Shown: one piece after another, positions 3,716 to 62,899 of the stretch
Layout: each line of letters begins with the position of its first letter
How positions within the stretch are numbered: the first letter of the stretch is position 1
Position numbers and translations under genes: made by a program
Source: Mobula birostris
Lineage: Eukaryota
Reading direction: 5' to 3'
Length of the DNA: 64,000 nt
Assembly: GCF_030028105.1 (NCBI RefSeq)
Contig: NC_092382.1
Location: forward strand, 103,995,586-104,059,585
Notes under the pieces: generated by a model
Seen by the model: the letters and a program-made list of their open reading frames with translations, nothing else
The model's database searches: none
Told to the model about the DNA's origin: nothing

Positions 3716-3939
3716 AGTTCTTGACTGTTGATCTCTCTTCCCACGGTAAAACATACCTTTTCCACGTTTGAATTTATTTCCAGGAGCCTTGCATCAAATT
3801 TTGAACAATGTTCCCTCGCTCCATCATAAGATTTTACGGACGTGGATATAAAATAACACCAGCCTTCCTTTTCGGTCCAGTACGGGGGACACGTTTGCTC
3901 TGAAACTCAAGAACAAGAAACAGTGAATCTTCCTCCAGT

Positions 3940-12280: not shown

Positions 12281-12315
12281 AGATTGTGGCCATCCTCACG
12301 TGGTCTGTCACATAC

Positions 12316-30532: not shown

Positions 30533-30731
30533 TTACTTGATTTCTGTCGCCTCCATTGGATGTTGACAGAGATCCTGAGTATGTTCAGGAATATGCGGGA
30601 ACAAAACTGCCGACTTCTCGCAGATGAAACGCCGAGCATGATTGCAAGAACTCTTCGCTGGGTACGAGTGGCAGTCTCTGCAGTCTGACGTCCCCGAGGA
30701 CACCTTGTACAGAAGATCCCAGTCTACATTC
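30533..30731 (-). CDS. Gene B exon 9 (CTLD C-terminal half and tail)
   Basis: [65 protein letters not shown]. Confidence 0.9.
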
Positions 30732-33700
30732 CTGTCCAAGACGGTTAACAATTTTAACAGAGACAAAGCAGCTCCAGCAGAGAACCCGAGGCGAGACAGT
30801 CTACAAGCTAAGCCCATGAAATCAATCTCTTCTAACAGCCTGTGCCAGTCCCCAAACTGATCCCACTCATCCACTCTCTCCCCACAGCTCCGTGCCAGTA
30901 CCCAGACAGACACAATGGTCCAAATGTCTCCCCACAATCCCGTGTCAGTTCCCAAACTAATCGTGCAGACCGAATGTCACCCCACAGACCCATGTCTCCC
31001 CAAACTAATCGCACCGTACCGCTTTCTCGCCACAGTCTTCTGTCAGTCCCCATACAAATCGAACAGGACCACGCTCTCCCTTCAGATCTCTTTCATTCCC
31101 CGTACAAACCCCACTGTCCCACCGTCTCCCCACAGACTTATGGCTGTCCTGAGATGAATCCCTCTCGTCCACACTCTTGCATCATCCCTGTGTCGGTCCC
31201 AGAATAATCCTGTTTCCCCTCACTATACCCAGAGCATCGTGTCAGTCTCCGAACATATCGCAGTACACGGCGCACTCACTATAAACTCTGGTCCGCTCCC
31301 AGACTTGTACAACTGGCACCCTCTCTCCCACATCCGTGCGTGAGTTTGCAAACCAGTCCCATTAGCGCCCTGTATCGGCCTCCAAACTAATCCAGTTGTC
31401 CTACTCTCGCCCCTCAGATCTATGTCATTCACCAAACAAATGCCGCTGTTAATCCCTCTCCTCACAGCCCGGCGACTATCTCCAAAATAATCCCACTCCA
31501 CCGCGCTTTCCTCACCGATATGCGTCAGTACAAAAAATGAGATAATTCCTGTGTCCTGAGCTCTCCACAGTGCCCCCAGGCAGTTTCCGAATTATCTCCA
31601 CTGCCCGGACATTCCCCGACAGACACGTGTCGGACTTAAAATGTCCTCATTGTACCACACTCTCCTGAGAACCATGTATAGTTTCATCGTAAACTAATCC
31701 CACTTTCTCCCGTCAGGGTTATGTCAATACCCAACTCTCACACCACAGAGTAATCCAAATCTCACCCGTCTTCGCATTTTCCAATCCAGTATGCACTGTT
31801 TCGGTACACAAGTTTGTCGGATACAAAGCTCTGTGAAATTAAATTTATTTGATTAATGCCAAGAATCGAAAAGTATGTACGGAGTTTCTCTCAGTTGATT
31901 ACAACATGAACCTGTGATTGGACGGTGTGGAGGGAGCTTCACTGTTTGCCATATCCTGTGAATGTATCATGGGACGGTGTGTAGGAAGATTCACTCTGTG
32001 TCTGACCCCGAGAAAGTGTGCTAGGAGTGTACTGTGGGAGTAACTCCGTGGCTGAACCCGGGGGAGTGTTGGGACGATGTGGAGGGAGATTCACTCTGTG
32101 TCTGACCCCGGGAGTGTGTGATGGGACGGTGTGGAGGGAGATTCACTATGTGCCATATCCATGAATGTGTCATGGGGCGCTGTGTAGGAACATTCACTCT
32201 GTGTTCGAATCCGGGAGTGTGTGATGGGACAGTGTGGAGGGAGCTTAACTCTGTGTCTGACCCCGAGAATGTGTACTAAGAGTGTATTCTGGGAGTAACT
32301 CTGTGGTTGAACCCGGGGGAGTGATGGGACGGTGTGGAGGGAGATAACTCTATGTCTGAACCCGAGAATGTGTCCTGGGAGTGTAGTATGGGTGTCACTC
32401 TGTGTGTCACCCCGGAAGTGTCTGATGATTCTTGTGAGATCTTCTTGTGATGTGACACATACCGCTTCATCTCTTGAATTGATTTCAAGCAGCCTTGCAT
32501 CACGGTTTGAACATTCTTGCATCGCTGTTGGGAAAAATGTTTCAGACGTGGATACGAAATAACACCGGTCTTTATTTGTGATCCAGTCCTTGGAACACGT
32601 ATGCTCTGGAAATAGGAATAAGAAGTAGTGAATATCACCCCACACCGTCCAATCACGCACATCGGGGTGAGAGATAGAGTGAATCTCCCTCCATTCCGTC
32701 CCAACCAACACCACACGGGATCAGACCCTTCGACCGTCATCAATGATGCCCTCACCCGCAGCTCCTGCATTCCCGGACTTCAGCCCTCACCCCATCCTCC
32801 CGTCACCACAACAGGGACAGAGACCCCCTTGTCTTCACCGTCCACCCCACCAGACTCCGGATCCAGCACCTTATCCTCCGCAACTTCAGCCAAATTCAAC
32901 AGGACCCACCAGGAAACACATCTTTCACTCTCTACTCCTCTCCGCTTTCCGAAGGGATCGTTCCTTCGGCGACTCCCTAGTCTACACGTCCCTCCCCACG
33001 GAGCAGGTCCTGAAAAGTGAGTATAGAGACCTTGGTCGGAAGTTAAACAGCAGGACCTCCAGGGTGGGTGGTAATCTCAGGATTGCCACCTGTGCCACGT
33101 GCCAGTGACGGTAAGAATAGGATGCTCTGGCGGATAGACACGTGGCTGAGAACTGGTGTAGGGGGCAGAGTTTCAGATTTCAGGATCTTTGGGACCATTT
33201 CTGCGGCAGGTGTGACCTGTACAAGAGTGACGGGTACACCTGAACTACAGGGGAGCCAATATTCTTGCTGGGAAATTTGTCTGTACTATTGTGGAGGGTT
33301 TAAACTAAATCTGCAGGGGGATGGGGTTGGTAACCAGAGTGCCAGAGCAGATAGCGGAGCGGGGGTGAAAATAATTGGTGTTAAAAGTTCATGGAAAGTC
33401 ACAAACAGAAGGGTTATGTGTGGTTGTAATAATCATCTGATGTGTTCTCTATTTCAAAGCGAGAAGTATCCTGGGGAAGGCTGACGAGCTGAGGGCGTGG
33501 ATTGACACATGGAATTACGACATAATATCAATTAGTGAAACTTGGCTACAGCAGGGGCAGGACTGGCAGCTTAATGTTCCAGCGTTCCGATGTTTCAGAC
33601 GTGATAGAGGCAGAGGAATGAAGGGAAGCGGGTGTGGCATTGCTGGTCAGGGAAAATCTCACAGCAGTGCTCAGTCAGGGCAGATCAGAGGGCTTGTCTT

Positions 33701-36700
33701 CCGAGACCTTATGGGTGGAGCTGAAAGACAGGAAAAGTATGACCATTTTAATGGGGTTGTATTATAGACCACCCAATAGTCAGCGAGAATGGGAGGAGCA
33801 AATCTCCAAAGAGATAGCAGACAACTGCAAGAAACATGAAGTTGTGATAGACGGGGATTTTAGTTTTCCACATACTGATTGTGAGTCCCATACTGTTAAA
33901 GGTCTAGACGGGTTAGAGCTTGTAAAATGCGTTCAGAAAGGTTTTCTAAATCAATATTTAGAGCTACCAACCAGAGACGATATAATATTAGATCTCCTAT
34001 TTGGAAACGAGTTAGTACAGGTGACGGAAGTGTGTGTAGGGGAACACTTTGATTCCACTGTTCATAACACTATTAGTTTCAATTTGACCATGGATAAAGA
34101 TACCTCTGGTCCTCGGGTTGAGGTTCTAAACTGGAAAAAGGCCAAATTTGAAGAAATGAGAAAGGATCTAAAAAGCGTGGATGGGACAGGTTGTTCGCTG
34201 GCAAGGATATGATTGATACGTGAGAGGCCTTCAAAGGTGACATTTTGAGAGTGCAGAGTTGAATTTCCCTGTAAGGATTAAAGGAAAAGTGAGTAAGAGT
34301 AAGGAAGCTAGGTTCTCGAGGAATATTGGAACACTGATAAAGAAGGAGAGAAGATGTTTTACATGTATAGGAAACAGGGAGTAAATAAGGTGCTTGAGTA
34401 ATATAAACAAGTGAAAAAGTACTTAACAAAGAAATCGGGAGGGCTAGAGGAAGACGGGGTTGCTTTGACAGTCAAGGTGAAGGATAATCCGAAGAATTTC
34501 CGCAGGTTTATTAAGAGCAAGAGGAGAGTAAGGGATAAAATTGGTCCTAATGAAGATCAGAGTGGTCGGCTATGTATGAAACCAGACGAAATAGGGGAGA
34601 TTTTATTTTATTTTATTTTATTCTTTTTGTGTGTCGTTATGTACTAAGGAAACTGGCATGGAGTCAATAGAAATCGGGCAAACAACAAATGAGGCCACGG
34701 AACCGATACAAATTCAAGAGGAAGAGGTGCTTGCAATCTTGAGGTATATATCCCCAGAGCCTGACAGGGTATTCCCTTGGACCTTAAATGAGACTAGTGT
34801 TGTAATTGCAGGGGCCCTGTCAGATATATTTAAAATGTCGTTACCGACAGGTGAAGTGCCGGAGGATTGGAGGATAGCTCATGCTGTTCCCTAGTTTAAT
34901 CGAGGCTCAGAAAGTAATCCCGGAAATTATAGGCTGTTAGTTTTGACATCATTAGGAGATAAATTATTGGAAAGAGGTCTAAGAGACAGGATCTACAAGT
35001 ATTTGGATAGACAGGGACTTATTAGGGAGAGTCAACATGGGGTTGTGCGTGGAACGTCATGTTTAACAAATCTATTAGAGTTTTTCGAGGAGGTTACCAG
35101 GAGGGTGGGTGTAGGAAACGCAGTGGATGTTGTCTATAGGGATTTCAGTAAGGCCTTTGACAAGGTCCCGCATGGGACGTTAGTCAGGAAGAGTCAGTCG
35201 CTAGCTATACATGCAGAGGCAGTAAAATGGATTAGACGTTGCTTCAATGAGAGAAACCAGAGGGTGGTAGTGGAGGATTGCTTCTCTGAGTGGAGGCCTG
35301 TGACTGGTGGTGTGCCACAGGGATCAGTGCTGGGTCCATTTATATTTGTCATCTGTATCAATGGCTGGATGATAATGTGATATGTTGGATCAGCAAATTT
35401 GCTGATCATACCAAGTGTGGAGGAGTAGTGGACAGTGACGAAGCTTTTCCAAGCTTGCAGAGGGATTTTGACCAGCTGGAAAATGGGCTGAAAAATGGCA
35501 AATGGAGGTTAACACAGATAAGTGTGAGGTATTACACTCTGGAAGGACACACCAAGGTAGAAGATAGAAGGTAAATGGTTGGGCACTGAGGAGTGCGGTG
35601 GAACAGAGGGGTCTGAGAACGCAGATGCAAAATTCTCTAAAAGGGGCGTCACAGGCAGATCGTGTCGTAAAGACAGCTTCTGGAACATCGTGTTATAAAT
35701 CAAAGTATTGACAGAGGATTGGAATGCTATGGAGCGGTTGTACAAGACATTGGTGAGGCCGAATTTGGAGTATTGTTTGCTGTTTTGCTCACCTAATTAC
35801 AGAAAGGATATTAACATGGTTCCAATATGCAGAGAAGGTTTACAAGGATGTTGCGGGGACTTGAGAAACTCAGTCACAGAGAGAGGTTGTAAAGGGCAGA
35901 ACTTGATTTCCTGGAGCGTAGAAGAATGAGGGGGGATTTGAAAGAGGTGCATACAATTGTGGTGTATATATATCCATGTATCTTAATTATGACGGGTTAT
36001 GATGGGTATTGGTTGGGTGAATGCAAACATGCTCTTTTTTTCTACAGAGGCAAGGGGAGATAAAAAAAATAAAATAGAGAAGACATGAGTTAAGGGTGAA
36101 GGGGGGAAATTTCAAAGAGAATATTAGGGGTCGGTGGCTTCTTCACTCATAGAGAGGTAGGAGTGCGGAATGAGCAGCCAGATAAAGTGGTAAATGCGGG
36201 CTCATATTTAACATTGAAGCAAATCTTGCACAGGTACAATGATGAGAGGTGAGGTGTATTGAGGGATATGGTCCAGGCGCAGGTTAGTGGGACCACACCA
36301 AAAATGATTTGGCACAGCCAAGAAGAGCCAGAAGGCCTGTTTCTGTGCTGTAATGTTTTTATGGTTTCCACAAGCTGTGATTCTTCCCAAAGGTTGTGTT
36401 ACTAAGTACTGACATGCAGGGTGTCCATATTTTTTCTTCATGCCTTTTCATTGTTTGCTATTTTGGAACGTAAAAGATGGAAATAAAAAAGTTCTCTTGC
36501 CTAAAATATTAAAGAAAACTGTCATCTTTAACTTTATGTTTTTTGGAAATCAGTTCATCTTTTACTCGTTTAGCTATTCACAGTAAAAGAAATTTTGATC
36601 AGGGAATCCCAAATGGTTGCATGCCACTGCAGTGTGAAACTCCCTCCGCACCATGCCGTCACACGCTCCCGGGGTCAGACACTGTATGAAGCTCCCTCCA

Positions 36701-39700
36701 CACGTCCCATCCCACACTCCCGGGGTCGGGCACAGAGTGAAATTCCCTCCACACCATTCCATCAAACCCTCCCGTGGTCAGCCAGAAAATGAAGCTTCCT
36801 CTGAATAGTCCACTGTCGCATCACACGCTCTTGCGGACAAACACAGAGTGAAGCTCCATCAGCACCGTCCCATCACACACCCGGGAACAGGCACAGAATG
36901 AAAATACCTCAGCAAAGCTCATCACACACACGGGAACAGACAGGGAATGAAACTCCCCTCAGCACCGTTCCATCACGGTCTCACAGAGTCAGGCATCGCG
37001 TGATGCTTCTTTCACACCGTCCCGTCACCGAATACAGATTTCAAAAACCCAGCAAAGATCCCTGTACAAAATCCTGGGGTCAGACATAGAATGAAGCTCC
37101 CTCCACGCCGTCCCATCACACATTCCCGGGGTCAAACACAGAGTGACGTTTTCTCCACACCCTTCTACCATGAAACAGAAGGATGAGGCACAGAGTTAAG
37201 CTAGCCTCACAGTGTCCATTCGCACACCGCAGGGAAGTGGTACGGTGTAGCTCCTTCAGCACCATCCGACTACCGACAGCCGAAGAAAGACATGAAGAAA
37301 GCTCTTGCCCACTCTCTTGCCCAGAAATGGTGTAAGGCTCCTTCACCAGCGTCTCATCACACTTTCCCCGAATCAGACACAGAGTGAAGCTCCCTCGACA
37401 CCGTGCTGAAGGCGAGCTACACTCCAAGTGAGGTAAGGCAGGGTAAGTTCCTTTAAAAGTAGAACGGTATGCAGCGGTATTTTATTTGGAGCAAGGAAGG
37501 CGGCGAGGCTGTAGCGTATTGGGTAGGTCATGACAGCTCAGATCGGCCCCATGGTTTGTTCACCTGCATGTGCGAAATCAGGCACTTCCACTATCCCTGA
37601 CGACTATGTGTGCAGGAAATGTGTCCAGCTGCGGATTCTGGCAGACCGCATTGAACGGCTGGAGCTGCGATTAGATTTATACTGGAGCATCCGCGTTGCT
37701 GAGGAAGTCGTGAATAGCACGTTCAGTGAGTTGGTCACACCGCAAGTAAAGGCTACACAGGCAGAAAGGGAATGGGTGGCCGCTAGACAGCGTAGCAGTA
37801 GGCAGCTAGTGCAGGAGTTCCCTGAGGTCATCTCTCTCCTAAACAAATATACTGTTTTGGATACTGTTGGGAGAGATGTCTCATCAGGGGGAGTTAGCAG
37901 CAGCCGAGTTCATGGCACCATGGGTGGCTCTGCTGCACAGGAGGTGAAGGAAAATGAGTGGGAGAGCTATAGTTATAGGGGACTCGATTGTAAGGGGAAT
38001 AGATAGGCGTTTCTGCGGGAGCAAACGAGACTCCAGGAGGGTATGTTGCCTCCCTGGTGCAGGGGTCAAGGATGTCTCTCAGTGGCTGCAGGACATTTTG
38101 GAGTGGGAGGGTGAACAGCCAGTGGTGGTGGTGCACATAAGTACCAAGGAAAGAGGTAAAATAACGGGATGAAGTCCTAGAAGGTGAATTTAGGGAGTTA
38201 GGAGATAAACTAAAAAGCAGGACCACGAGGGTAATAATCTCTGGATTAGCAGCAGTGCCACGTGACACTCAGAGTAGAAATAGCAGGATATATCAGATAA
38301 ATACGTGGGTTGAAAATCGTGCAACGGGGAGGGATTCAATTTTCTGGGGCATTTGAACCTGTTCTAGAGGAGTTGACACCGGTACAAACAGGACGGTCTG
38401 CACCTGGGCTAGACTGGAACCAATGTCCTAAGGAGAGCGTTCGCTACTATTGTTAAGAAGGATTTAAACTAATGTGGCAGGGGAATGGGAACAAGTGCAG
38501 AGAGACAGAGGGGTGTAAAATGAGGGTAGAGCAAAAAGTAGTAAGGTGAAACGCAAAAGTGGCAGGCCGGCAAATTCAGGGTAAAAATCAAAAAGGACCA
38601 CTTTTCAACATAATTGTATAGGGGCTAAGAGTGTTGTAAAAGCAAGCCTGAAGGCTTTGTGTGTCAATGCAAGGAACATTCGTAACAAGGTGGGTGAATT
38701 GAATGTGCACATAGTTATTAATGAATATGCTGTAGTTGGGATCACAGAGACATGGCTCCTGTGTGACCAAGGATGGGAGCTCAACATTCAGGGATATTCA
38801 ATATTCAAGAGGGATAGACATGACAATTAATGAGGTCGGGTAGCATTGCTGGTTAGAGAGGAGATTAACGCATTAGAAAGGAAGGACATAAGCCGGGAGG
38901 ATGTGGAATCGATACGGGTAAAGCTGCATAACACTAAGGGACAGAGAACGCTGGTGGGAGTTGTGTACAGGCCACCTAACTGTAGTAATGAGGTTAGAGA
39001 TGGCATTAAACAGAAAATTAGAAATGCGTGCAATAAAGGAACAGCAGTTATAATGTGTGACTTGAATCTACATATAGATTGGGTGAACCAAATTGGTTAG
39101 TGTGCTGACGAAGAGGATTTCTTGGAATGTATGCCCGATGGTTTTCTGAATCAACATGTCCAGGAACCAACTAGAGAGCAGATAATTCTAGACCGGGTAC
39201 TGAGTAATGAGGAAGGGTTAGGTAGCAATCTTGTACTGCTAGGCCCATGCGTAAGGGTGATCATAATATAGTGGATTTCTTCATGAAGATGGAGAGTGAC
39301 ATATTTAATTCAGAAACAAAGGTTCTGAAATTAAGGGTAACTTTGAAGGTATGAAAAGTGAATTAGCGAAGATAGACTGGCAAATGATAATTAAAGGGTT
39401 GACGGAGGATATCCAACGGCAAGCATTCAAAGATCGCATGGAGGAACTACAACATTTGTTCATCCCAGTTTGGCACAAGAATAAACCAGGGAAGGTAGTG
39501 CACCTCTGGCTGACAGGGAAAATTAGGGATGGTATCAATTCCAAAGAAGAAACATACAAATTAGCCAGAAAAAAGCGGCACACCTGAGGACTGGGAGAAA
39601 TTCGGAGTCCGGCAGAGGTGGACAAATGACTTAATTAGGAAAGGCAAAAAAAGCTGATGAGAGAAAGATTGCAGGGAACCTAATAACTGACCTCAAAAGC

Positions 39701-42700
39701 TTTTATAGATATGTAAAAAGAAAAAAAAATAATTGGATAAGACAAATGCAGTTCTTAGAGTCAGAAACTGGTGAATTGTTCATGCGGAACCAGGACACGG
39801 CAGACCAATTGAATAACTACCTTGGTTCTGTCTTCACTAAGGAGGACATAAATAATCTTCCGGAAATATTAGTGGACCGAGGGTTCAGTGAGATGGAGGA
39901 ACTGAGGGAAAATACATGTTAGTAGGGAAGTGGTGTTGGATAAATTGAAGGGATTATAGGCAGATAAATCCCCAGGGCGAGATGGTCTGCATTCCAGAGT
40001 GCACCAAGAAGTAGCCCAAGAAATAGTGGATGCATTCGTGATAATTCTTCAAAACTCTTTAGATTCTGGATCAGTTCCTGAGGATTGGAGGGTGGCTAAC
40101 TTAACCCCGCTTAAAAAAAAAAAAAAGTGAGAGAGAAACCGGGGTATAATAGACCGGTTAGCCTGACATCGGTGGTGGGGAAAATGCTAGAGTCAGTTAT
40201 CAAAGATGTGATAACAGCAGATTTGGAAAGCGGTGAAATCATCGGAAAAAGTCAGCATGGATTTGTGAAAGGAAAATCATGTCTGACGAATCGCATAGAA
40301 TTTTTTGAGGATATAACTAGTAGAGTGGATAGGGGAGAAACAGTGGATGTGGTATATTTGGATTTTCAAAAGGCTTTTGACAAGGTCCCACACAGGAGAT
40401 TAGTGTGCAAACTTAAAGAACACGGTATTGGGGGTATGGTATTGATGTGGATAGAGAATTGGTTGGCAGACAGGAAGCAAAGAGTGGGAATAAACGAGAC
40501 GTTTTTCAGAATGGCAGGCAGTGACTAATGGGGTACCGCAAGGCTCAGTGCTGGGACCCCAGTTGTTTACAATATATATTAATGACTTAGTCGAGGGAAT
40601 TAAATGCAACATCTCCAAGTTTGCGGATGACACGAAGCTGGGTGGCAGTGTTAGCTGTGAGGAGGATGCTAAGAGGATGCACGGTGACTTGGATTGTTTG
40701 GGTGAGTGGGCAAATTCATGGCAGATGCAATTTGATGTGGATAAATGTGAGTTTATCCAGTTTGGTGGCAAGAACAGGAAAACCAATTATTTTCTGAATG
40801 GTGGCAGATTAGGATAACGGGAGGTGCAACGAGACCCCAGTGTTATTGTGCACCAGTCATTGAAAGTGGGCATGCAGGTACAGCAGGCAGTGAAAAGGCA
40901 AACGATTTGCTGGTATTCACATCAAGAGGATTCGAGTACAGGAGCAGGGTGTTTCTACTGCAGTTGCATAATTCCTTGGTGAGACCACCCCTGGAGTATT
41001 GTGTGCAGTTTTGGTCTCCTAATCTGAGGAAACACATCCTTGCCATGGAGGGAGTACAAAGAAGGTTCACCAGATTGATTCGTGGGATGGCAGGACTTTC
41101 ATATGATGAAAGACTGGATCGACTAGGCTTATAGTGGCTGGAATTTGGAAGATTGAAGGGGTCCTTATTGAAACATGCAAAATTCAGAAGAGATTGGACA
41201 GGCTAGATGCAGGAAGATTGTTCCAGATGTCGGGGAAGTCCAAAATGAGGGGTCACAGTTTAAGGATAAAGGTGAAACCTTTTAGGACCGAGATCAGGAA
41301 AAACTTCTTCACACAGACAGTGGTGAATCTGTGGAATTCTCTCTCACAGGAAACAGTTGAGGCCAGTTCATTGGCTATGTTTAAGAGGGAGTTAGATGTG
41401 GCCCTTGTGGCTAAGGGATTAGGGGGTATGGAGGGAAGGCTGCTACAGGGTTCTGAATTGGATGATCAGCCATGATCATACTGAATGGCGGTGCAGGCTC
41501 GAAGGGCCGAATGGCCTAATCCTGCACCTATTTTCTATGTTTCTATGTTTCTGTCTCCACGGACACATCACACACTCCAGGTGCCCGATGTGGAATGAAG
41601 CTCCCGTCCACACTGTCTCATGAGACACTCTTGGGGACAGACACATAGTGACGCTCCCTCCATACCGCCCCTCACACACACACCTTAGTTCGGAGAACAC
41701 AATTTATTTCCCTCCACAAAGTCCAGTCAGACACAGTGTGAATCTCTCTCTTCGTGGCACCGTCACACACTCTAGCGGTCAGACAGGGAAAGAAACTCCC
41801 TGAGCACACATAAAATTTCAGATTGAGAATGATTCTCCCCTCTACAGCTTCTCAACACACCACAGAGCAAAGTGTCAGACACAGAGTGAATCTCCCCCTT
41901 ATACGGTCCCGTCACACACTCCCGGATTCAGACACAGAATGAAGCTCCCTCCACACCGTCCCATCACACACTCTCGGGGTCAGAGATAGAGTGACTCTCC
42001 CTCCATAGTGTTCCGTCACACACTCCCGGGAGTCAGACACAGAGTGAAGCTCCCTGCACATGGTCCCATCACAGACTCCTGTGGTCAGTCACAGAGTAAA
42101 GTTCCCTTCACACCGTCCCATTACACCGTCTCGGGGTCACAGACAGAATGAATCTCCCACCACATGGTCCAATCCCACATCCCGAGTCTTACACAGTGTG
42201 ACTCTCCCTCCTTACGTCGCATCACATACTCCCTGGCGAGTCACAGAACGAAGCTCTTCCTGAACTGACCCACCACACCCCACTGTGTTCACACAAAGCG
42301 ACGTTCCACCCACACACTCCCATGGCACACTCACGGGGTCAGAATCTCTCCACAGCATCCAATCACACAATCTGGTGTCACATATAATAAACGTCCATCT
42401 GCACTGTCCCATCAAACACTCCCGGAGTCAGACACAGACGCTCTTTCTCTACGATCCCATTGAGACTGACACAGAGTGAAGCAACATCCGCTCCGTCCCA
42501 GCACACACTCCTGAATTCAGCACAGAGTGAAGCTTCCTCTGCACCGTCCCATCACTCACTTCCGGAATCACGCACAGAGTGAAGCCCCCTCTGCAACGTC
42601 CCATCACGCTGTCCCGGATTCAGATGAATCTTTCTCCACGGTGCCATAACGCCATGGATTCAGACATTGGGTGACGCTCTGTGGGCACTGTCCCATCACA

Positions 42701-45700
42701 CTATCCCACTGTCAGACATAGAGTGAAGCTGGATCCACACCCTCCCATCTGAGAGTCCCCGAGTCAGTCCTAGAGCGAAGCTGTAATGTTACGTCTCACA
42801 ATCCCGTGGTCAGACACAGAGTGAAACCACCTCCACAACGTCCCACCACACTCTCCTGGGTTCGGTGATAGAGTGCAACTTCCTCCGCGCAGCCCCATCA
42901 CACGATCACCGAGTCAGACACTGAGTGAATCTCCCTATATACCATCTCTTCACACACTCCCTATGTTAAGCACAGAGTGACGTTTCCGCTCACTGTGCCT
43001 GCCCCGTCATGAGGAGCGTGTTAAAGAGTGGATGATGCCTCACCTCTTCTGCTGGTCAACAATTCACAGATATGAGCCTTGGTTTCGTTGACAGATCTGA
43101 ACATCGTTTCCGTCTCAGTGAACTGGTGACGGAGATCAGTGTGAATTCGTTTGAGAATGGACAGATCAGAGTTGAGCGCAGAAAGATTCTTGAGACAGGT
43201 TCTCTGGGAGAGATTCAGGTGGGAAGTTAACTCATGGTAGTTTCGGTCAGACGTGATCATAGACTGACGAATCTGTGATACTGAGAGAGAAGGTGAAAGA
43301 TATTTATCGTTTACAGTGACACGTGAGTCACCGTCACGCTACCGAACGGGTCACAGAGAGTGATGTGTCAGTGTCACGGTGAAGGGTGTCACAGTGATGG
43401 ATGTGCTGGTGGCACAGTGAGAGAAGTCGGCGCCACCCTGCGGTGCGTGTCTGTGCCGCGCTGAGCGGTTTATAAATTTCCCGGTGAAGGTGTTACTGTT
43501 ACAATGGGGTCTGCATCAGTATCGTACGGGGCATGTTCGTGTTGCTGTGAGGTAAGTGACGGTGTCACTGTGATAGGTGTTTTTGTGCCCCGGCGAGAGT
43601 TGTGCCGGGTTACCGTGTCTCGATGTCACTGCGAGGGAAATGTCAGAGTGAGCGACCTGGTGTTGTCACGCTGGGTGGAGTATCTGTGTCATGGTGTTGG
43701 GTCTGCCGATCTCACAGAGAGGGGTGTGTCTGCGTCGACCTTGGAGACATGTCATGGCCACGATCGGTGTGACAGTGTCTCGCTGAGGTGTGTCGATGTC
43801 ACCGAGACTACTAGGTCGGGGACGCTGTGAAATTAAGTGTCGGCATCACGGTGACTGGTTTGCCTGTGTCACGGTGAGGTGCCTCAGTGAGCGGTGCCAC
43901 GGAGTTATTTTGAGGGCCGATACCGTATCGGTAATGGGCGTTGAAGTTGGTGTGAGTCTTTGTCACGATACCGAGCTGGACGGATCTCGTTGAGGAGCGT
44001 GTAGGTGTCTTGGTGTACGGTGCCTAACTGTCACGGTGAAGGACGTGTCGGTCTCACTGCGAGGTGAGTTTCGGTGTCGCCTAAGGGGAGTGTACCAGTT
44101 ACACTGTCAGGGTCAGGTCGATGTTCCAGTAAGGGGGACCATGTCTGTGTCACGATGTGGCTCGTGTCCCTGTCTCGGTTTGGAGTGCAACTGTGTCGAA
44201 TTGAAGTTTGCGTCCGTGCGACCGTGACAGGATTGTCTGGATGAGTCCTGAATGTGCTACGGTAAAGGCCGTGTCTTTGTCACGGTTAGCGGTGTGTCTG
44301 TGTTATGGTGAGGAGTTATTGTGTTGTTACGGTAAGGGGCGCGTCTGCGTCACTGTAGTGTTTTACAATAACAATTTGTTCCACTCTCTTTATTTGCGGT
44401 CTGACTCCACCCGGACCCCGTTCGGCTCACCGTGGATCGAGAGCCCGGCCACAATCACGGCAAGGATGCACGTAATGATGCAGAGTAAGTAGATCTTACG
44501 ATATGGTCTATTTCCGATGTACTCTTTCGGCTCCTGTTCGTGCGCACCTGTGGAGAGAGCACAAGACCATAAGATATAGGAGCAGAAGTAGGCTATTCGG
44601 CCTATTAAGTTTGCCTTTTCCTCATAACGTTTGAAGTTCGTTTCTCAGACAGAAAGCCGGTCACTAACGGTGTTCACCGGGGTCAAGGGTGGGACCAGTG
44701 ATCTTTATCAATTATATCGACGATTTGCGGTAGATTATATTGGTCGCGGTTGGTAAGCCTGCACACAACACTAACGTCGGTGCCGAGGTAAACAGTGAAG
44801 ACAGTTACCGCTTACACTGGGATTTCGATTACCTGGGGAAGGGGGCAGAGCAGTTGCAAATGTGATTTATTTTTCATAAGTGCGAGCTATCGTATTTCAG
44901 AAAGGAAAACAAGGGTACAACGTTCACAGTGTTCGGGAGAAACCCTGGCGTGTGTTGAATAACAGTGGGACAAAGGGCCCCACGTCCAACGTTCCTGGAG
45001 AGTGAAGTTACCGGTAGAGGGGTCGGTGAAGGTGTCTGACGTCCCGGCCTTCATCAATCAGGGCACGGAGTACAGGATTAAGGGGGTCACGTTGCAGTTG
45101 TACAAGACGTCGGTGAGGCCGCCCTTGGAGTACGGTGTTTAGTTTTGGTCGCCCTGCTATAGGAAATATATCAATGAGCTGGACAGATTGCAGAGGGATA
45201 TTTACGACGATATTGCCGGGGCTCGAGGGATTCAGTTACGGAGATAAGTCGAGCAGGTGGGGACTTTATTCCTTGCAGCGCAGGGGTGACCTTACAGGGG
45301 TGTATACAAACACGTGGGTACACAGAGAAGGTGAATGCGCACTGTAATTTTCTTTAATCTTGAGGAACCGTGGGCCGGAGCGCACATTTCTGAGATGATA
45401 GCAGAAAGAGATTTAAACTGGGACCCGAGTGACGATTTTGTTTTTACCCAGACGGCGGTCTGTCTATGGAACGAGCTGCCAGAGGAAGTGATGGATGCCG
45501 ATGCATTAGGACTTGAATTGTTGGGCGTATGGCACGTGACCACTTCAGAGTGACGTCATAACTGTGAACTCTGACCTCCTTGTGCAGTCACTGGCATTTC
45601 GGCGGGTGCCGAGGTAATGGGAGGATCCTCATAATCATCGATGAGAATGTCGTCTTTCCGAAGGTTCAGCATTGAATAGATGGATGTGACACCGTCTGGG

Positions 45701-48700
45701 AAGAAAGAAAGAGAATGTGAGAGACAGAGAAATAGAAGGAGGAGGAATGGTTACTTCGAGTGCCAGGATTTAGATGTTTCAGAAAGGACAGGGAGAGAGG
45801 CAAAAGAGGTGGGACTGTTGATCAGAGATAGTGTCACTGCTGCAGAAGAGCAGGAAGACAAGCAGGAATTGTTTATACCAAGGGGCTGGAGACTACCGAG
45901 ACGGTATATGAGGTGTTGCTCCTCCAAACTTGTCCCTACACCTCATCTCCTGCAAACATTCAGGGCCCCAAACAGTCCTTCCAGGTGAGACAACACTTCA
46001 CTTGTGAGTCTGTTGGGGTCGACTATTGAATCCGGTACTCCCGGTGCGACCTCATCTACATCGATGAAACCCGACGCAGATTGGGGGACCACTTCGTCGA
46101 GCACCTCCACTCCGTCCGCCACAACAGCTATGATCTCCCGGTAGCCACCCACTTCAACTCTGCTTCCCACTTCCATTCAGATATGTCCATATATGGCCTC
46201 CTCTACCTGTATGATGAGGCTAAACTCAGGTTGGAGGAGCAACACCTCATATACCGTCCAGGTAGTCTCCAGCCCCTTGGTATGAACATAGAATTCTCCG
46301 ACTTTCGGTAATTCCCTCCCCCTCCCTTCCTCTATCCCTATTTCACTCTACCCCGTCCCCCAGCTCCCTCATGGTTCCGCCTCCTTCTTCTACCACCCAT
46401 TTATTCAGGGCTATGAAGTCACTGCTTCCCCTCCCCCACCCCTTTATCTTTCAAGTTACTGGTCTTTCAACTGAAGCTACAAGCATTCTTCAAATCCTTC
46501 CCCATCTTTCATTCTTCAGTCCTGACGAAGGGTTCCGGTCCGAAACGTCGACTCATCGTTTCTGACTGACGCTGCCCGACCTGCTGAGTTCATCCAGCGT
46601 ACTGAAAGTGTTGCTTCAATAACTCTACAGGGAGTTTTTTTTTTTAATAGACGGCATGCTCTAAGATTGAATGGTTCAGATGGGAGAGAGTTCAGTAGGT
46701 GTGCTTAAAATGATTTCATTTAGAGTTCCTCAAAGAACTCTAAAGGCTTGATAGACATGACTTGCCTTTAACAAAACCATGTTGACTGTCCCTGATCAGA
46801 CCATGATTTTCTAAATGCCCAGAGATCCAATCTCTAAGAATCTTTTCCAAGACAGACGGAAAGCTCACTGGACTATAATTACCCGGACTGTCCCTACTAA
46901 CTTTTTTGAACAAGGTGTAAACATTCGCCTCCCTCCAATCCTCAGGTACCATTCACGTGGACACGAGGACATAAAGGTCCTCGCTCTGCCTAGGAAGGCA
47001 GTGGAGGCGAATTCTCTGGATTATTTCAAGAAAGATTTAGATCGAGCTGTTATAGGTCGCAGAGTCAAGGGATATAGGGAGAAGGCAGGAAAAGGGTACT
47101 GATTCTGGACGTTCAGCCATGATCACAGTGAATAGCGGTGCTGACTCGAAGGGATGAATGGCCTAATCCTGTACCTATTGTCTATTGTGTATTATCCCAC
47201 CCATCTACATTTGCATTCAGATCATTGTATATATCTCAAAGAGGAGATGTCCCAGTGGAAAGTCATAGATACAGATCACATCATAGGAGTAAAAGAGGTA
47301 AAAGAATAACTGAGCGCAGAGTAAAGTGTCACAGTTACAGAGAAAGTACAGTGCAGGCAGACATTAATATTCAAGGGGACACGACGTAGCAGACGGCGGT
47401 GTCTAGAGTACATTACCGTCATCGAGGACCATTGCATAGTCTGATAAAAGCGGGCACAAACTGCCTTTGTGCCTGGCCAGGCTTGTTTTGATATCTTCCC
47501 CCGATGTGGGAGAGTATGGGTTGGGCGGGGGTCTCGTAAGTACATTATCCTGGGTGGGTCGGAGTCTTTATTACGGAGGCTGCTTCAGCGATGCAGCGGG
47601 ATGTGTGGATGAAGGCCTTGAGGCTGCCTGATCTGCGCAATTCAAGCTGACTGAGAACAAAGTGCGATAAATGACAGATTGTCACTTGCTGGGAAGAGGA
47701 CAATCAATGGAGCAGAGACAATTAAAACGTGTTAAATGTCAGGAACTTTTGTTACCCCGATGGCAGTCAGTGAGTGGCACAAGCTGCCAGAGGTAGTGGC
47801 CGAGGCAGATGCATTAGAAACTTGGACACTTGGGAGTATGACACGTGACCCCTTCCGAATGGCGTCGGTACTGTGAACCCTGACCTGTTCGTGCAGTGAC
47901 TCGCAGCTCGCCGGAACTCGAGGCAATGGGAGGAACCTCATCCTCATCGATGACGGGTTCGTCTTTCCCAATGTTCAGCTCGGAGTAGGTGGAGGTCAGA
48001 CGGTCTGGGGAAGAAAGAGGAGAGAATGAGAGAGAGAGATTTAGAAGGAGGACAGACCAGTAAAGCATGGTGGAGGAGTGAGGACAGAGAAACGGAGCAG
48101 CGATGCAGGAAGATAGAGTGCGGAAAGAGAGGGCTGAGTGGTAGATATTGAAGATGAGAGAGAGGTTCAAGTGAGGGGAAAGAGCCGAGGAGAAAGAGCA
48201 GGATAGTGAGGATGAAAAGGATGAATGAACTGGGCAGAGAGGAGTGAGCGATTTGAGTGATGGGTGAGAAGATGGGAGTGAATGGGGGAGAGAGAACGGT
48301 GACGGAAAGGGGAAAGACAGAGAGAGGGAGGGAGAAAAGGGAGAGAGATTATGCGTAGGGGAGTGGCAGGGGTGAAAACATCAGCGAAGGAGAAGGTGAG
48401 AGAGGGGGACTGAGGAAAGGGAAAATTGGGAAGCTCAAGGATGCAAAATAAAGGGAGAGAGACAGAAGGGGAGACAGGTTAAATAGAGAGGGTAATGAGA
48501 GAGGGGAGAGCGTGGGGGAGAGAGGGACGAGGAGAATACAGAGAGTGAGAAGGTGTGGAGGGGGCAGTTGCTCGGAAGATTGGGTCACAGCGAGAGGGTG
48601 TGAACGGGGAGATAGACTGAAACAGGAGGGAGAAAACGTGGCGGGGCGAAGTGAGCGAAGTGAGGGAAAGAGTGCGCGAGAAGAACGAGGGCGGTGGAGA

Positions 48701-49990
48701 AGGACAATATGAAAGAGAGTGTGGGAAAGGGGAGAATGGGGAAAGAGAGTTAGATAGAGGGGAAATGGCAACGGAGAGAGCGGGAGGCGTAGAAGGGTAG
48801 AAACAGTGATAAGGGTAGGGAAAGTGGAGAGAATGAGGGTAAGAGAAAGAATTAGTGGGCCAGAGAAGAAGAAAAGAAGGTGAGAGCGGATTAGCGTGTG
48901 AGAGATAGGGGGGAGAAAGAGGGAGGCAGGGGAGAGAGAGTAGAAAGGATGAGAGAGCAGGGTTAGAACGCGGAGAGTATTGTTCACATTTTATAGAGTT
49001 CCCCTTCCTCACTGCCTCTTTCTACTCTCCTCCCTCCTCGCCACTCCTCCCAAGGGGTTTCCTCCTTATTGGCCATGCCGCAGTACTCCCTGCTGTCGCA
49101 CCACGCCCCCCCCCCACCACACAGAGCCCCCTCCTCAGTGCCCCCCAATTTAATCCGCTCACACGGTTCTCCCACCACACCACAAATCCCGTGACGTTCT
49201 CTGCACCGATCCCACCCAGAGCAATCTTCTCATCACTTTCCACAGCCCTCCGTCTCTACCGCCCCGCCTCCTGCTCTGCCTTACCCCGCCCCTTCCCAGA
49301 GCGCTCCCCCCTCACCGACCATCCCACAGAGCTCGTATCTCATCGCGTCTCGCACGCATTGCCTCGGAATCATTCTCAAACAGGGAATCATTAGTGTCAA
49401 CTGCACCCGTGCCACGAGATTTCTCGACAGGAATGGACACATCGGCTGAACAGAGTCAAAACAACAAAGTGAAACTGACCTGCATCTGTCCGGGGAACGG
49501 AGAGGCCCCTGATATCCGGTTTCGCGTACGATACATCAGGTTCAGCTGGGAAAAGAACAGTGAGAGTCAGAAACAGGGTGAGGCTCCCGTCCCACGCTCC
49601 TATCACAAACTCCCGTGGTCAGACACAGAGTCAGGCTTCCTCCACCCCGTTCCATTCCCCACTCCCGCGGTCAGCAACAGAGTGAATCTCCCTCCACACC
49701 ATCCCATCACACAGACACGGGATGAGACACCGAGTGAAGCTCCCTCCCCACTGTCCCATTACACATTCCCAGAGCCAGAAACAGAGAGTCGCTCCCTCCA
49801 CCCGTCCCATCACACGCTCCGACTGTCAGACAAAGAGTGTTGCTCCCTCCACCCCGTCCCATTACACACTCCAGGGGACAGAAAGAGATTGAAACTCCCT
49901 CCTTCCCTCACGGCCTCACTCACTTCTCGATGGAAGCCGTAAGTCCGGTTTGACGAGCTGAACATTCGCATAAGTCTGGCTGTCTTCCAT
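30533..49990 (-). CDS. Gene B: intact type II transmembrane C-type lectin-like (NK-receptor-like) inhibitory receptor, 9 coding exons, 377 aa
   Basis: Exons 49990-49924, 49545-49480, 48004-47885, 45695-45576, 44547-44431, 43280-43044, 32605-32463, 31830-31766, 30731-30533. All introns are GT-AG with consistent phases, giving 1134 nt with no internal stop. Joining neck to CTLD across the 10.4-kb TE-filled intron is inferred from phase and from the absence of another intervening CTLD exon. Confidence 0.85.
30830..31745 (+). repeat. Last-intron degenerate minisatellite
   Basis: Same family as 27075-28290 and 62900-64000. Confidence 0.75.
31766..31830 (-). CDS. Gene B exon 8 (CTLD middle)
   Basis: cag|[22 protein letters not shown]|gtgag, 65 nt. 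Confidence 0.9.
31910..32430 (+). repeat. 52-bp satellite array
   Basis: Tandem units visible. Orientation flips at 32625-32725, beyond exon 7. Confidence 0.9.
32463..32605 (-). CDS. Gene B exon 7 (CTLD N-terminal)
   Basis: cag|[48 protein letters not shown]|gtatg, 143 nt. Confidence 0.92.
32725..32998 (+). mobile_element. Penelope-like element fragment
   Basis: [11 protein letters not shown].. and ..[16 protein letters not shown] motifs, typical of the Penelope RT/GIY-YIG linker. Confidence 0.6.
32999..36365 (+). mobile_element. CR1 LINE (end of ORF1 esterase plus ORF2), decayed
   Basis: [45 protein letters not shown] and [10 protein letters not shown] motifs, with many stops. Confidence 0.95.
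36367..36630 (+). mobile_element. Tc1 3' end fragment
   Basis: Aligns with 17590-17847. Confidence 0.7.
36630..37405 (-). repeat. Degenerate 52-bp satellite
   Basis: Tandem units visible. Confidence 0.8.
37405..41552 (+). mobile_element. Near full-length CR1 LINE (ORF1 zinc finger plus SGNH esterase; ORF2 EN+RT), inactivated
   Basis: [44 protein letters not shown] and [12 protein letters not shown] motifs. 3' tail (TTTCTATG)n. Multiple frameshifts. Confidence 0.95.
41555..43000 (-). repeat. Degenerate 52-bp satellite (gene B intron 6)
   Basis: Tandem units. Homologous in inverted orientation to 59360-60350. Confidence 0.85.
43044..43280 (-). CDS. Gene B exon 6 (coiled-coil neck)
   Basis: [79 protein letters not shown], 237 nt, phase 1-1. 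Confidence 0.9.
43310..44355 (+). repeat. Degenerate GTGTCAC(A/G)GTG minisatellite (gene B intron 5)
   Basis: Same family as 4805-5870. Confidence 0.75.
44431..44547 (-). CDS. Gene B exon 5 (transmembrane)
   Basis: [39 protein letters not shown], 117 nt. Basic residues precede an uncharged hydrophobic stretch, consistent with type II topology. Confidence 0.9.
44565..45510 (+). mobile_element. Old CR1 fragments in intron 4 (mirror copy on - strand at ~58375-59147)
   Basis: [16 protein letters not shown] and [16 protein letters not shown] motifs. Confidence 0.75.
45576..45695 (-). CDS. Gene B exon 4 (ITIM SIYSML)
   Basis: [40 protein letters not shown], 120 nt, phase 1-1. Confidence 0.85.
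45878..46620 (+). mobile_element. Penelope-like element 3' part (GIY-YIG)
   Basis: [54 protein letters not shown]. Has a short inverted piece at 45878-45930 and a CCTGACGAAGGGTTCCGGTCCGAAACGTCGAC end. Confidence 0.9.
46730..47190. mobile_element. CR1 RT fragment (-) and CR1 3' end (+); mirror copy at ~56685-57145
   Basis: [22 protein letters not shown] motif and a CAGCCATGATCA..TCGAAGGG..AATGGCCT 3' end. Confidence 0.8.
47885..48004 (-). CDS. Gene B exon 3 (ITIM STYSEL)
   Basis: [40 protein letters not shown], 120 nt, phase 1-1. Confidence 0.88.
49480..49545 (-). CDS. Gene B exon 2 (ITIM-like VSYAKP)
   Basis: [22 protein letters not shown], 66 nt, cag/gtcag boundaries. Confidence 0.8.
49924..49990 (-). 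CDS. Gene B exon 1 (start codon; QTYANV)
   Basis: ACAGC-ATG-G Kozak-like context, [22 protein letters not shown]|gtgagt. Confidence 0.85.
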
Positions 49991-50985: not shown

Positions 50986-51362
50986 CAGTGTTTCAGAGAA
51001 GTATTGAAAGATTGCTGCTGCACTGACTGAGCTATATACGCAGCAAGAAATAAAAATAGCAGGGACCTCAGCCCAACAGACGCAGTTCAGGAGCTCTCTC
51101 AAAAACCCTCCATCACCTCCTGTCAATCATGTTCTCCCTCTGCGTCCCTCACTCTTCCTTCACTATCTTACTATTTCTCTCCCTTGACTGCCTCCAACCT
51201 GCTTCAATTTCGCTCCTTTCTTCAGCTCTCCCATTTTCCTCTTACCCCTCTCCCTCCTGTGCCTTTCTATCTCAGTGCCCTCCTCATGAAGCCTTCTCTT
51301 TTTTCTCCCCACGCTTTCTACCCGACAAGAGAGATTCTACGTACCTTGTTCCTATTTTCCAG

Positions 51363-51438
51363 AGCAGGCGGTGTGGCGAAGCAGCATTTTTCACACCCAG
51401 ATTCAAAGCGTCTGGAAATAAATTCAAAAGTGGAAGAG
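51363..51438 (+). pseudogene. Internally deleted CTLD-1 exon remnant in the palindrome spacer
   Basis: ttccag|AGCAG..AKQHFSHPDSKRLEINSKVEE with the donor lost. Downstream GATATATCCACACC matches the gene C intron at ~61712. Confidence 0.7.
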
Positions 51439-51629
51439 TCCTTTGTCAGATACACAGAAGATATATCCACACCGGACTGAATATCCATCCACACTGTTCC
51501 ATCCCACACTCCCGTGATCAAACGCAGAGTGAAACTCCCTCCACACCGTCCCAGCACACACGCCCGGGGTCAGACACATGGTGAAGCCCCCTCCACACCT
51601 TTGGTGTCAGATCTGCTGTCTTTCACGCG

Positions 51630-61525: not shown

Positions 61526-61719
61526 TTCGGTTTTCCGAATTTCCAGAGCAAGCATTTTCCCAGGACTGGATTAGAAATGAAGACCGGTGTTATTTCATAT
61601 CCACGATTGAAAGATCCTACGATGAGGCGAAGCAGCATTGTTGGAACTCTGATTCAAATCTTCTTGAAATAAATTCAACAGAGGAAGAGGTATGTATCTT
61701 ATCGACCGGAAGATATATC

Positions 61720-62770: not shown

Positions 62771-62899
62771 CTCTCTAAATTTTGCTCGAATTCAATCATT
62801 AATGATAGCAATTTAATTTCAAAGAATTTTGTTATCAAAGCTGTGCACGACCAACGCAGTTCATTCTGGATTGGAAAATGCAAAGCCGTGTGAGATTAG

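What the first reader, a model, noticed from the sequence alone, without database searches (positions are those of the whole stretch)
30533..49990. Intact multi-tyrosine inhibitory-type C-type lectin receptor hidden from the ORF track
Seen: nine GT-AG exons join into a 377-aa stop-free frame. The ~140-aa cytoplasmic tail carries QTYANV, VSYAKP, STYSEL and SIYSML (plus DDYEDP), followed by an uncharged TM, neck and CTLD. Known: STYSEL and SIYSML fit the ITIM consensus (S/I/V/L)xYxx(I/V/L), and mammalian NK-complex lectins (NKG2A, Ly49, KLRG1, CLEC12A) have shorter tails with one or two ITIMs. Inference: a lineage-expanded NK or leukocyte inhibitory receptor family in a cartilaginous fish, a group where NK receptors are poorly defined.
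Basis: partly seen in the sequence, partly recalled or inferred. Interest (0 to 1): 0.72.

Follow-up and report, generated by a model that had tools for sequence, protein, structure and literature searches.

The report
Paired lectin-like immune receptors of rays
This is an intact manta-ray gene for a cell-surface "brake" receptor; it belongs to a large, fast-changing family of brake-and-accelerator receptor pairs seen so far only in stingrays and devil rays, a group whose immune killer-cell receptors are unknown.

Summary
Confirmed. Nine GT-AG exons on the minus strand give a stop-free 377-aa type II protein, identical to an existing NCBI model ('uncharacterized protein', Mobula birostris), so it is spliced, not hidden. 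Only two of the five tail tyrosines are ITIMs; these sit in tandemly duplicated 120-nt exons. VSYAKP is a decayed ITIM; QTYANV is a YxN (Grb2-type) site. The gene belongs to a large family: 204 named 90%-identity clusters, all from four myliobatiform rays. 119 of 131 long-tailed members carry ITIMs. 19 others have tails of median 13 residues, no ITIM and an Arg at the outer end of the membrane helix. The lectin domains of the two types intermingle (up to 95% identical), the signature of paired receptors. The lectin domain is short, lacks Ca/sugar motifs and has extra invariant cysteines. It resembles group V (CLEC9A, NKR-P1, CD69, CD72) without being assignable to any. Tails are homogenised within species, and the window holds several broken copies. 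Inhibitory leukocyte receptor is likely; NK-cell expression, ligand and presence in sharks are untested. Ten literature searches found no description; two papers report no NK-complex lectin orthologues in cartilaginous fishes.

The parts
49924..49990 (-). Exon 1: start codon, residues 1-22, with QTYANV (Y7, 49978-49961), a YxN Grb2-SH2-type site (motif meaning recalled)
   Evidence: YxN present in 74 of 131 long tails; in-frame stop upstream of the ATG
49480..49545 (-). Exon 2: VSYAKP (Y29, 49534-49517), a decayed ITIM; relatives carry VSYVEL/VSYAEL/VSYAEV here
47885..48004 (-). Exon 3 (120 nt, phase 1-1): ITIM STYSEL (Y51, 47993-47976)
   Evidence: commonest family motif, 39 occurrences
45576..45695 (-). 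Exon 4 (120 nt, phase 1-1), tandem duplicate of exon 3: ITIM SIYSML (Y91, 45684-45667) and DDYEDP (Y106, 45639-45622)
   Evidence: 88/120 nt identical to exon 3, with similarity extending into flanking intron (76% over 306 nt)
44431..44547 (-). Exon 5: membrane-proximal tail and uncharged transmembrane helix (about 144-162; Cys147, Cys151)
   Evidence: helix 139-169 in the AF2 model
43044..43280 (-). Exon 6: 79-aa helical neck with heptad pattern, three N-glycosylation sequons (186, 195, 228) and the invariant Cys235
   Evidence: helix 178-243; 14 of 23 a/d positions hydrophobic in the best register
32463..32605 (-). Exon 7: first part of the lectin-like domain (C246, C257, C274)
   Evidence: (CD69 E=5e-7)
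31766..31830 (-). Exon 8 (only 65 nt): alpha2 to WIGKC; ends right after it, without the usual WxWxDG long-loop segment; family-invariant C309
30533..30731 (-). Exon 9: end of the lectin-like domain (CxxC 329/332, C341, FICEK C349), C-terminal helix with C367, stop codon
29830..29835 (-). AATAAA about 700 nt past the stop; candidate poly(A) signal, the only AATAAA/ATTAAA in the 1.5 kb scanned
   Evidence: inference
53880..62887 (+). Head-to-head inverted paralogue, probably a pseudogene. Exons 1-4 copy the gene (11 of 373 nt differ; ITIM Tyr51 is His). The TM exon and the 5' part of the neck exon are missing: intron-4 sequence joins exon 6 at 59148. Exons 7-8 (61547-61689, 62825-62887) come from a different lectin-domain lineage.
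   Evidence: 95.4% identity over 6530 nt
2111..4787 (-). 3' part (neck plus three lectin exons) of another paralogue; the last exon changes frame; no TM or tail exon found in the window
   Evidence: matches P0227
9323..9950 (-). Broken neck and lectin exon remnants with stop codons
12316..12460 (-). Broken lectin exon 7 remnant (stop and frameshift)
26857..27052 (-). Orphan last lectin exon of another paralogue, open frame
51355..51447 (+). Short lectin exon 7 remnant between the two inverted copies

Best explanation
The gene encodes the inhibitory member of a paired family of type II C-type-lectin-like leukocyte receptors expanded in stingrays and devil rays. Shown from sequence: tail with two ITIMs, uncharged membrane helix, helical neck, and a compact lectin-like domain without Ca/sugar motifs. 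Inferred mechanism: the neck oligomerises (probably a dimer) and holds the domain away from the membrane. The domain binds a protein ligand, most likely a self marker or damage signal, through its two variable loops. A Src-family kinase then phosphorylates Y51 and Y91, which recruit SHP-1/SHP-2 and damp activation; Y7 (YxN) and Y106 (YxxP) may dock adaptors such as Grb2. Sister genes with near-identical ectodomains, a short tail and a membrane Arg would signal the other way through an ITAM adaptor such as FcR-gamma. The family evolves by duplication, decay and swapping of tail/TM exons between lectin-domain lineages, as expected under pressure from pathogens that exploit the inhibitory forms. 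The cell type is unknown; my rough split is myeloid 0.4, NK/cytotoxic lymphocyte 0.35, B cell 0.15, other 0.1.
For: Intact frame identical to an independent NCBI model, with a colinear 377-aa counterpart in M. hypostoma (P0008). ITIMs in 119 of 131 long tails; 213 motifs against 17 expected. 19 of 204 clusters have a TM ending in W-R-I-H/Q-type sequence, a median tail of 13 aa and 0 ITIMs, in three of the four species. Their lectin domains are scattered among the ITIM types: 11 of 13 are closer to an ITIM-type than to another Arg-type, 2 tie, and identity reaches 95%; one clade is rejected at p-AU 1.5e-5. This matches the definition of paired receptors in PMC3533184 (passages). Tails group by species (121/124 and 123/124 within, 106-108/124 across) while lectin domains group by lineage (114/135 and 115/133 against 55-56/132); the window's inverted copy shows the same mosaic directly in DNA. 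No EPN/QPD/WND in 80 of 80 domains. Lectin fold confirmed. Variability peaks in two surface loops (2.9 and 2.8 bits against 0.9 in core strands). 39 of 41 M. birostris clusters lie on a contig of one length (112,019,601) and 7 of 7 M. hypostoma clusters on another.
Against: No expression, phosphorylation or binding data; the NCBI model is a prediction and I could not see its RNA support. For this protein alone two ITIM matches are not rare (5.3% of shuffles). The Arg lies at the very outer end of the helix and could be just a boundary residue. Family counts are 90%-identity clusters that include isoforms, partial models and visibly mis-joined models (8 with two uncharged TMs, 1 Arg-type plus uncharged, 16 without TM), so some inhibitory/activating pairs could be annotation chimeras. 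The ITIM-type pool (97) is much larger than the Arg-type pool (13), which favours nearest neighbours of ITIM type, and 13 of the 33 ITIM-type rows were hand-picked. No Arg-type TM exon was seen in the part of the window search that was printed (output limited to positions below about 19 kb); the family-wide exon map of the same call shows only one TM exon in the window, the gene's own.
Confidence: 0.75

Rival explanations
1. A myeloid receptor family of the Dectin-1-cluster or DCIR/DCAR kind (CLEC12A/12B, CLEC9A-like) that senses dead-cell or microbial ligands, unrelated to NK missing-self recognition. This is a narrower version of the best explanation.
For: CLEC9A is the best single-domain solved-structure match (1.8e-9; 2e-18; 1.1e-9). 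The CLEC12A ectodomain match extends into the neck (185-310). CLEC12A and CLEC5A are among the top folds (Z 13.2 and 13.0). Many NCBI names are OLR1-, CLEC12-, CLEC9A- or CLEC7A-like.
Against: Identities are only 20-30%. NKR-P1 and CD69 score nearly as well, and fold Z-scores tie within 1. The second half of the domain aligns poorly to all of them.
Confidence: 0.4
2. A variable NK/cytotoxic-lymphocyte receptor system analogous to Ly49 or NKR-P1, reading MHC class I or a lectin-like self ligand.
For: Paired architecture, clustering, birth-and-death and hypervariable loops. The domain-only ESM neighbours are KLRB1C- and KLRG1-named clusters (0.90-0.91). NKR-P1A/B rank high by sequence and fold. 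PMC10529500 (passage) reports an NK cluster in nurse shark spleen defined only by perforin and granzyme.
Against: Paired expansion is not specific to NK cells. No named shark, skate or chimaera member appeared, although NK-like cells exist in sharks. Synteny and expression are untested.
Confidence: 0.35
3. A CD72-like B-cell co-receptor family: ITIM plus Grb2-binding tyrosine, long coiled neck and shortened lectin domain.
For: CD72 has an ITIM binding SHP-1 and an ITIM-like motif binding Grb2 (PMC7168817 passages), and a shortened alpha2-beta3 region without a Ca site (PMC5110020 passages); both are mirrored here. CD72 (5b1r) aligns over 106 of 116 residues, Z 12.6, rmsd 3.0. Two M. hypostoma members are named CD72-like.
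Against: CD72 is not in the top 60 listed by sequence and ranks 9th by fold. Mammalian CD72 has no activating twin (recalled). The short loop could be convergent.
Confidence: 0.15
4. A mainly activating or dual-signal receptor: the tyrosines dock Grb2, Nck or PI3K-type adaptors more than phosphatases, as in multi-tyrosine group II lectins.
For: YxN in 74 of 131 tails and acidic YEDP in 13. ETYMNV is the second commonest tail tyrosine context (22 occurrences). Whole-protein ESM neighbours are CD209-like/ASGR-like clusters (0.92-0.93).
Against: ITIM-consensus sites are the most conserved and most duplicated element, and a separate Arg-type class exists to supply activation.
Confidence: 0.1
5. 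An unexpressed or non-immune recent duplicate whose frame is open only because it is young.
For: Every other family-derived segment in the window is broken or incomplete. No RNA evidence was seen.
Against: All 16 splice sites and the frame are intact across 19.5 kb, including a 10.4 kb intron with LINE remnants. A colinear counterpart with about 84% identity and no indels exists in another species. All family-invariant cysteines are kept.
Confidence: 0.07

Closest known systems
Dectin-1-cluster group V receptors (CLEC9A, CLEC12A/B, LOX-1)
   Same: Type II topology, helical neck, three-exon Ca-independent lectin-like domain; best sequence matches; CLEC12A carries an ITIM (recalled).
   Different: Domain about 16 residues shorter than CLEC9A over the aligned span (108 vs 124); WIGKC instead of WIGL; extra C309/C332/C367; about 142-aa exon-modular tail; dozens of paralogues with Arg-type twins.
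Rodent NKR-P1 (KLRB1) and Ly49 paired NK receptors; DCIR/DCAR
   Same: Clustered inhibitory (ITIM) and activating (short tail, TM Arg, ITAM adaptor) members with similar ectodomains (PMC3533184 passages); NKR-P1 high by sequence and fold.
   Different: No demonstrable orthology (20-26% identity); domain 13 residues shorter than NKR-P1A (108 vs 121); longer tail with several tyrosines; ligand and cell type unknown.
CD72
   Same: ITIM plus Grb2-type tyrosine, long helical neck, shortened alpha2-beta3 region, no Ca site.
   Different: Not among the top sequence matches; different extra cysteines; expanded paired family.
Teleost immune-related lectin-like receptors (zebrafish illr)
   Same: A fish family of lectin-like receptors resembling NK receptors, expressed in myeloid and lymphoid cells (PMC3319919 passage).
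   Different: No teleost sequence appeared among the listed hits; that illr are group II with few members is recalled, not tested.

Membership tests
C-type lectin-like domain superfamily | Pfam Lectin_C above cut-off and lectin fold | tested here: met
   28.1 bits vs 22.6; Z 15.5, rmsd 1.6, 95 aligned to BDCA-2; Z 14.0, rmsd 2.4, 100 aligned to LLT1
Ca-dependent sugar-binding lectins (group II: CD209, ASGR, CLEC4) | EPN or QPD plus WND calcium-site motifs | tested here: not met
   0 of 80 full domains carry EPN, QPD or WND; one has EPS
Group V NK-receptor-like lectins | Type II membrane protein with separate neck exon and a three-exon lectin domain | tested here: met
   exons 5, 6 and 7-9; expected exon layout recalled
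Group V NK-receptor-like lectins | Six canonical cysteines and no calcium site | tested here: met
   C246, C257, C274, C329, C341, C349 present in 86-100% of 154; pairing inferred from spacing, not observed
Group V NK-receptor-like lectins | WIGL motif followed by the WxWxDG long loop | tested here: not met
   WIGKC in 103 of 154, Cys at that position in all 154; domain 6-16 residues shorter than aligned group V domains
Group V NK-receptor-like lectins | Disulphide-linked dimer | not testable with these tools
Natural killer complex genes (KLR/CLEC cluster) | Synteny with NKC or MHC-paralogon markers | not testable with these tools
   the window holds only family members and repeats
Natural killer complex genes (KLR/CLEC cluster) | Orthology to a named member (Ly49, NKG2A, KLRG1, NKR-P1, CLEC12A, CLEC9A) | tested here: inconclusive
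   20-30% identity to several; fold scores tie
NK-cell receptors | Expression on NK cells | not testable with these tools
   no expression data
Paired receptors (PMC3533184 definition) | Inhibitory members with cytoplasmic ITIM | tested here: met
   119 of 131 long tails
Paired receptors (PMC3533184 definition) | Activating members with short tail and Arg/Lys in the TM | tested here: inconclusive
   19 of 204 have a short ITIM-free tail and a conserved Arg, but it lies at the outer edge of the helix and adaptor binding is untested
Paired receptors (PMC3533184 definition) | Closely similar ectodomains across the two types | tested here: met
   up to 95% identical lectin domains; p-AU 1.5e-5 against one Arg-type clade; rests on predicted gene models
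Paired receptors (PMC3533184 definition) | Gene cluster | tested here: met
   six family-derived segments in 64 kb; 39 of 41 M. birostris clusters on a contig of one length
Paired receptors (PMC3533184 definition) | Expression on overlapping immune cells | not testable with these tools
   no expression data
CD72 | ITIM plus Grb2-type tyrosine; short alpha2-beta3 region without Ca site | tested here: met
CD72 | Best reciprocal sequence or structure match | tested here: inconclusive
   Z 12.6, rank 9, within 1 of most of the top rows; not listed in the top 60 by sequence

The most novel reading that the evidence does not exclude
Rays carry an independently evolved Ly49/KIR-like variable NK receptor system. 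It is built on a compact, cysteine-stapled lectin domain not seen in bony vertebrates, and interchangeable ITIM exons and Arg-type membrane exons are shuffled onto diversifying ligand-binding domains that read MHC class I. It would be the first polygenic missing-self receptor family in cartilaginous fishes, with divergent shark counterparts still to be found.
Probability: 0.2. Interest if true: 0.85.

Novelty: new variant of a known kind. Interest (0 to 1): 0.6.

Why it matters
Two papers state that NK-complex lectin genes were not found in cartilaginous fishes: PMC8455134 (no orthologues of CD69/KLRC; passage) and PMC5002281 (none in elephant shark; passage). [quoted passage not shown] A large paired lectin-like receptor cluster in rays gives concrete candidates for how leukocytes of the oldest lineage with MHC and antibodies balance activation and inhibition, and makes the question testable (expression, MHC binding, adaptor use). 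The kind of system is familiar, since paired receptors have arisen repeatedly in vertebrates, and the gene model already sits unnamed in NCBI. The new elements are the family, its altered lectin domain and its exon-modular tails.

Tried and rejected
Single-exon Pfam scans found no lectin domain in any of the 9 exons; only the whole protein passes. Neck hits to Cas_Csn2, COMP, SPAM and dynamin are below cut-off coiled-coil noise. Searches for shark, skate or chimaera members found none among named, listed hits: 120 of 124, 104 of 104 and the top 120 of 304. The 184 unlisted rows were not seen, and the word filter misses distant relatives. So restriction to Myliobatiformes is suggested, not shown. 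CD72 orthology was considered and left unresolved. Snake-venom lectins and domain-swapped BDCA-2 rank high, probably because their long loop is swung out of the core (inference); no venom role is implied. Disulphide pairing among C309/C329/C332/C341 and C235/C367 could not be read because model coordinates are not returned. Ten literature searches showed no paper describing this family; the library lacks most subscription journals. Two of 24 'lectin' places in the PMC10751288 supplement were viewed (reedfish rows); the rest, and the supplements of the other papers, were not read.
Full report
OBSERVATION. The gene lies on the minus strand from 49990 to 30533. Nine exons of 67, 66, 120, 120, 117, 237, 143, 65 and 199 nt are separated by eight GT-AG introns (378 to 10,438 nt) and give 377 residues with a single terminal stop. 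The product has no differences from P0002, an NCBI model named 'uncharacterized protein [Mobula birostris]'. The window is therefore giant manta ray DNA or near-identical to it, and the gene is already predicted though unnamed. The ESM Atlas also holds the sequence letter for letter. I could not retrieve the accession or its RNA support.

ANATOMY. Residues 1 to about 143 are cytoplasmic and predicted disordered (pLDDT under 50). [quoted passage not shown] Pfam Lectin_C passes at 28.1 bits against 22.6. Of the five quoted tyrosines only Y51 (STYSEL) and Y91 (SIYSML) fit the ITIM consensus. They sit in two 120-nt phase-1 exons that are 88/120 identical, so the long tail arose by exon duplication. 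Y29 (VSYAKP) lies where relatives have VSYVEL, VSYAEL or VSYAEV, so it is a decayed ITIM. Y7 is a YxN site, present in 74 of 131 long tails, and Y106 an acidic YEDP site, present in 13 of 131; their reading as Grb2- and Nck/Crk-type docking sites is recalled knowledge. Two ITIM matches arise in 5.3% of shuffles of this tail alone, but the family has 213 against a shuffle mean of 17 and a maximum of 31.

THE FAMILY. Three searches returned only proteins of Mobula birostris, M. hypostoma, Hypanus sabinus and Hemitrygon akajei among the listed rows: 120 of 124, 104 of 104 and 120 of 304. Together they give 204 distinct named clusters at 90% identity (101 Hemitrygon, 55 Hypanus, 41 M. birostris, 7 M. 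hypostoma). These include isoforms and faulty models, so they are not gene counts. 39 of the 41 M. birostris clusters are on a contig of one length (112,019,601 bases) and all 7 M. hypostoma clusters on another, which suggests one cluster per genome. An exhaustive profile search listed 150 of 3339 unnamed representatives. Restriction to Myliobatiformes is thus suggested but not shown.

PAIRED TYPES. Of the 204 clusters, 157 have one membrane helix of the uncharged type; 131 of these have tails of 60 residues or more, 119 with at least one ITIM and 77 with two or more. 19 have a different membrane exon ending in W-R-I-H/Q, a median tail of 13 residues and no ITIM. 3 are partial Arg-type models, 9 have two membrane segments and 16 none. 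Among 154 distinct full lectin domains, 11 of 13 Arg-type proteins are closer to an ITIM-type than to another Arg-type protein and 2 tie, with identities up to 95%. In a 45-row tree (12 Arg-type, 13 hand-picked and 20 random ITIM-type) the label needs 11 changes, like shuffled labels, and one Arg-type clade is rejected at p-AU 1.5e-5. This is the pattern that defines paired receptors (PMC3533184, passages). The closest Arg-type relative of our protein is P0010 of the same species, 71% identical in the domain. Caveats: the Arg lies at the outer edge of the helix, the pools are unequal, and mis-joined models could mimic pairs.

MOSAIC EVOLUTION. Among four full-length Mobula proteins, tails group by species (121/124 within M. 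birostris, 123/124 within M. hypostoma, 106-108/124 across) while lectin domains group across species (114/135 and 115/133 against 55-56/132). The window shows this in DNA. An inverted copy at 52653-59152 is 95.4% identical to the gene's upstream region and exons 1-4. It has His in place of Tyr51, lacks the membrane exon and half the neck exon, and continues with lectin exons of the other lineage. Four more broken or orphan family segments lie at 2111-4787, 9323-12460, 26857-27052 and 51355-51447. This is birth-and-death evolution with exchange of 5' exons.

THE LECTIN DOMAIN. None of 80 full domains has EPN, QPD or WND, so calcium-dependent sugar binding is unlikely. WIGL is replaced by WIGKC (103 of 154; the Cys is in all 154). 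Exon 8 ends right after it, and the domain is 6-16 residues shorter than aligned group V domains. Besides six canonical cysteines, C309, C332 and C367 are 99-100% conserved and neck C235 is invariant in 79; their pairing is unresolved. Variation peaks in the alpha2-beta2 loop and the 333-344 loop (2.9 and 2.8 bits against 0.9 in core strands), the likely ligand face (inference). By sequence the best single-domain solved matches are CLEC9A, then NKR-P1, LOX-1, CD69 and DCIR. By fold, a relative's model (P0114, mean pLDDT 78.8) gives LLT1 Z 14.0 (rmsd 2.4, 100 aligned), CLEC12A 13.2, NKp80 13.2, ASGR1 13.1, CLEC5A 13.0 and CD72 12.6 (rmsd 3.0, 106 of 116 aligned); most of these tie. ESM features point to KLRB1/KLRG1-named clusters for the domain (0.90-0.91) and to CD209/ASGR-named clusters for the whole protein (0.92-0.93). 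It works like a group V paired receptor, but the WIGL/long-loop feature is not met and no orthology is shown, so I do not file it under any named mammalian family. CD72 shares the short alpha2-beta3 region (PMC5110020, passages) and the ITIM plus Grb2 motif pair (PMC7168817, passages) but is not the top match.

MECHANISM. Shown: topology, motifs, family structure, loss of the calcium site. Inferred: ligand binding by the variable loops, Src-family phosphorylation of Y51/Y91, recruitment of SHP-1/2 and damping of activation, with Arg-type twins coupling to an ITAM adaptor (confidence 0.75).

NOVELTY. [quoted passage not shown] PMC5002281 found no KLRG1, KLRB1 or CLEC2 in elephant shark (passage). 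[quoted passage not shown] PMC10529500 defines nurse shark NK cells without any lectin marker (passage). PMC3319919 mentions the zebrafish illr family (passage); passages of PMC4701786 and PMC8813856 added nothing specific. Ten searches showed no description of this family; the library lacks most subscription journals and unread supplements may bear on this.

VERDICT. A real, intact gene; a new variant of a known kind (paired lectin-like immune receptors) in a lineage where such receptors were reported missing. Interest 0.6. The most novel reading, a variable NK receptor system for MHC class I, has a probability of about 0.2.

Noticed in passing
window 33400-36350 and 38400-41560 (+ strand, inside intron 6): Two decayed LINE (CR1-like) remnants with reverse-transcriptase motifs at 35144, 35309, 40364, 40530 and 40620 account for most of the 10.4-kb intron; the family label is recalled.
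   Followed up: partly
window, many sites (e.g. 120-540, 2740-3720, 41870-43000, 52120-52570, 61720-62780): An approximately 52-bp tandem repeat fills introns of the gene and of its paralogues; it could promote the unequal crossing-over and exon exchange seen in the cluster (inference).
   Followed up: no
window 59148 (+) against 44732 and 43188 (-): The junction that removed the membrane exon from the inverted copy falls in a 5-base microhomology shared by intron 4 and exon 6.
   Followed up: partly
P0189, P0256, P0257: A long-branch subfamily present in Hypanus and both Mobula species, named CD72-like in M. hypostoma, with a shorter C-terminal segment; a candidate for the oldest branch and for tracing orthology.
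   Followed up: partly
P0012, P0090, P0145: Arg-type members that keep an exon-1 tyrosine or further tail exons (P0012 YMNM, P0090 YVNV; P0145 has an STYSEL exon), i.e. possible dual-signal receptors or mis-joined models.
   Followed up: no
P0152, P0153, P0155, P0157, P0145, P0228: Models in which the membrane exon joins the lectin exon directly, skipping the neck exon; the phases allow it, so neck-less isoforms may exist.
   Followed up: no
window 23380-23566: Assembly gap of 187 N.
   Followed up: no
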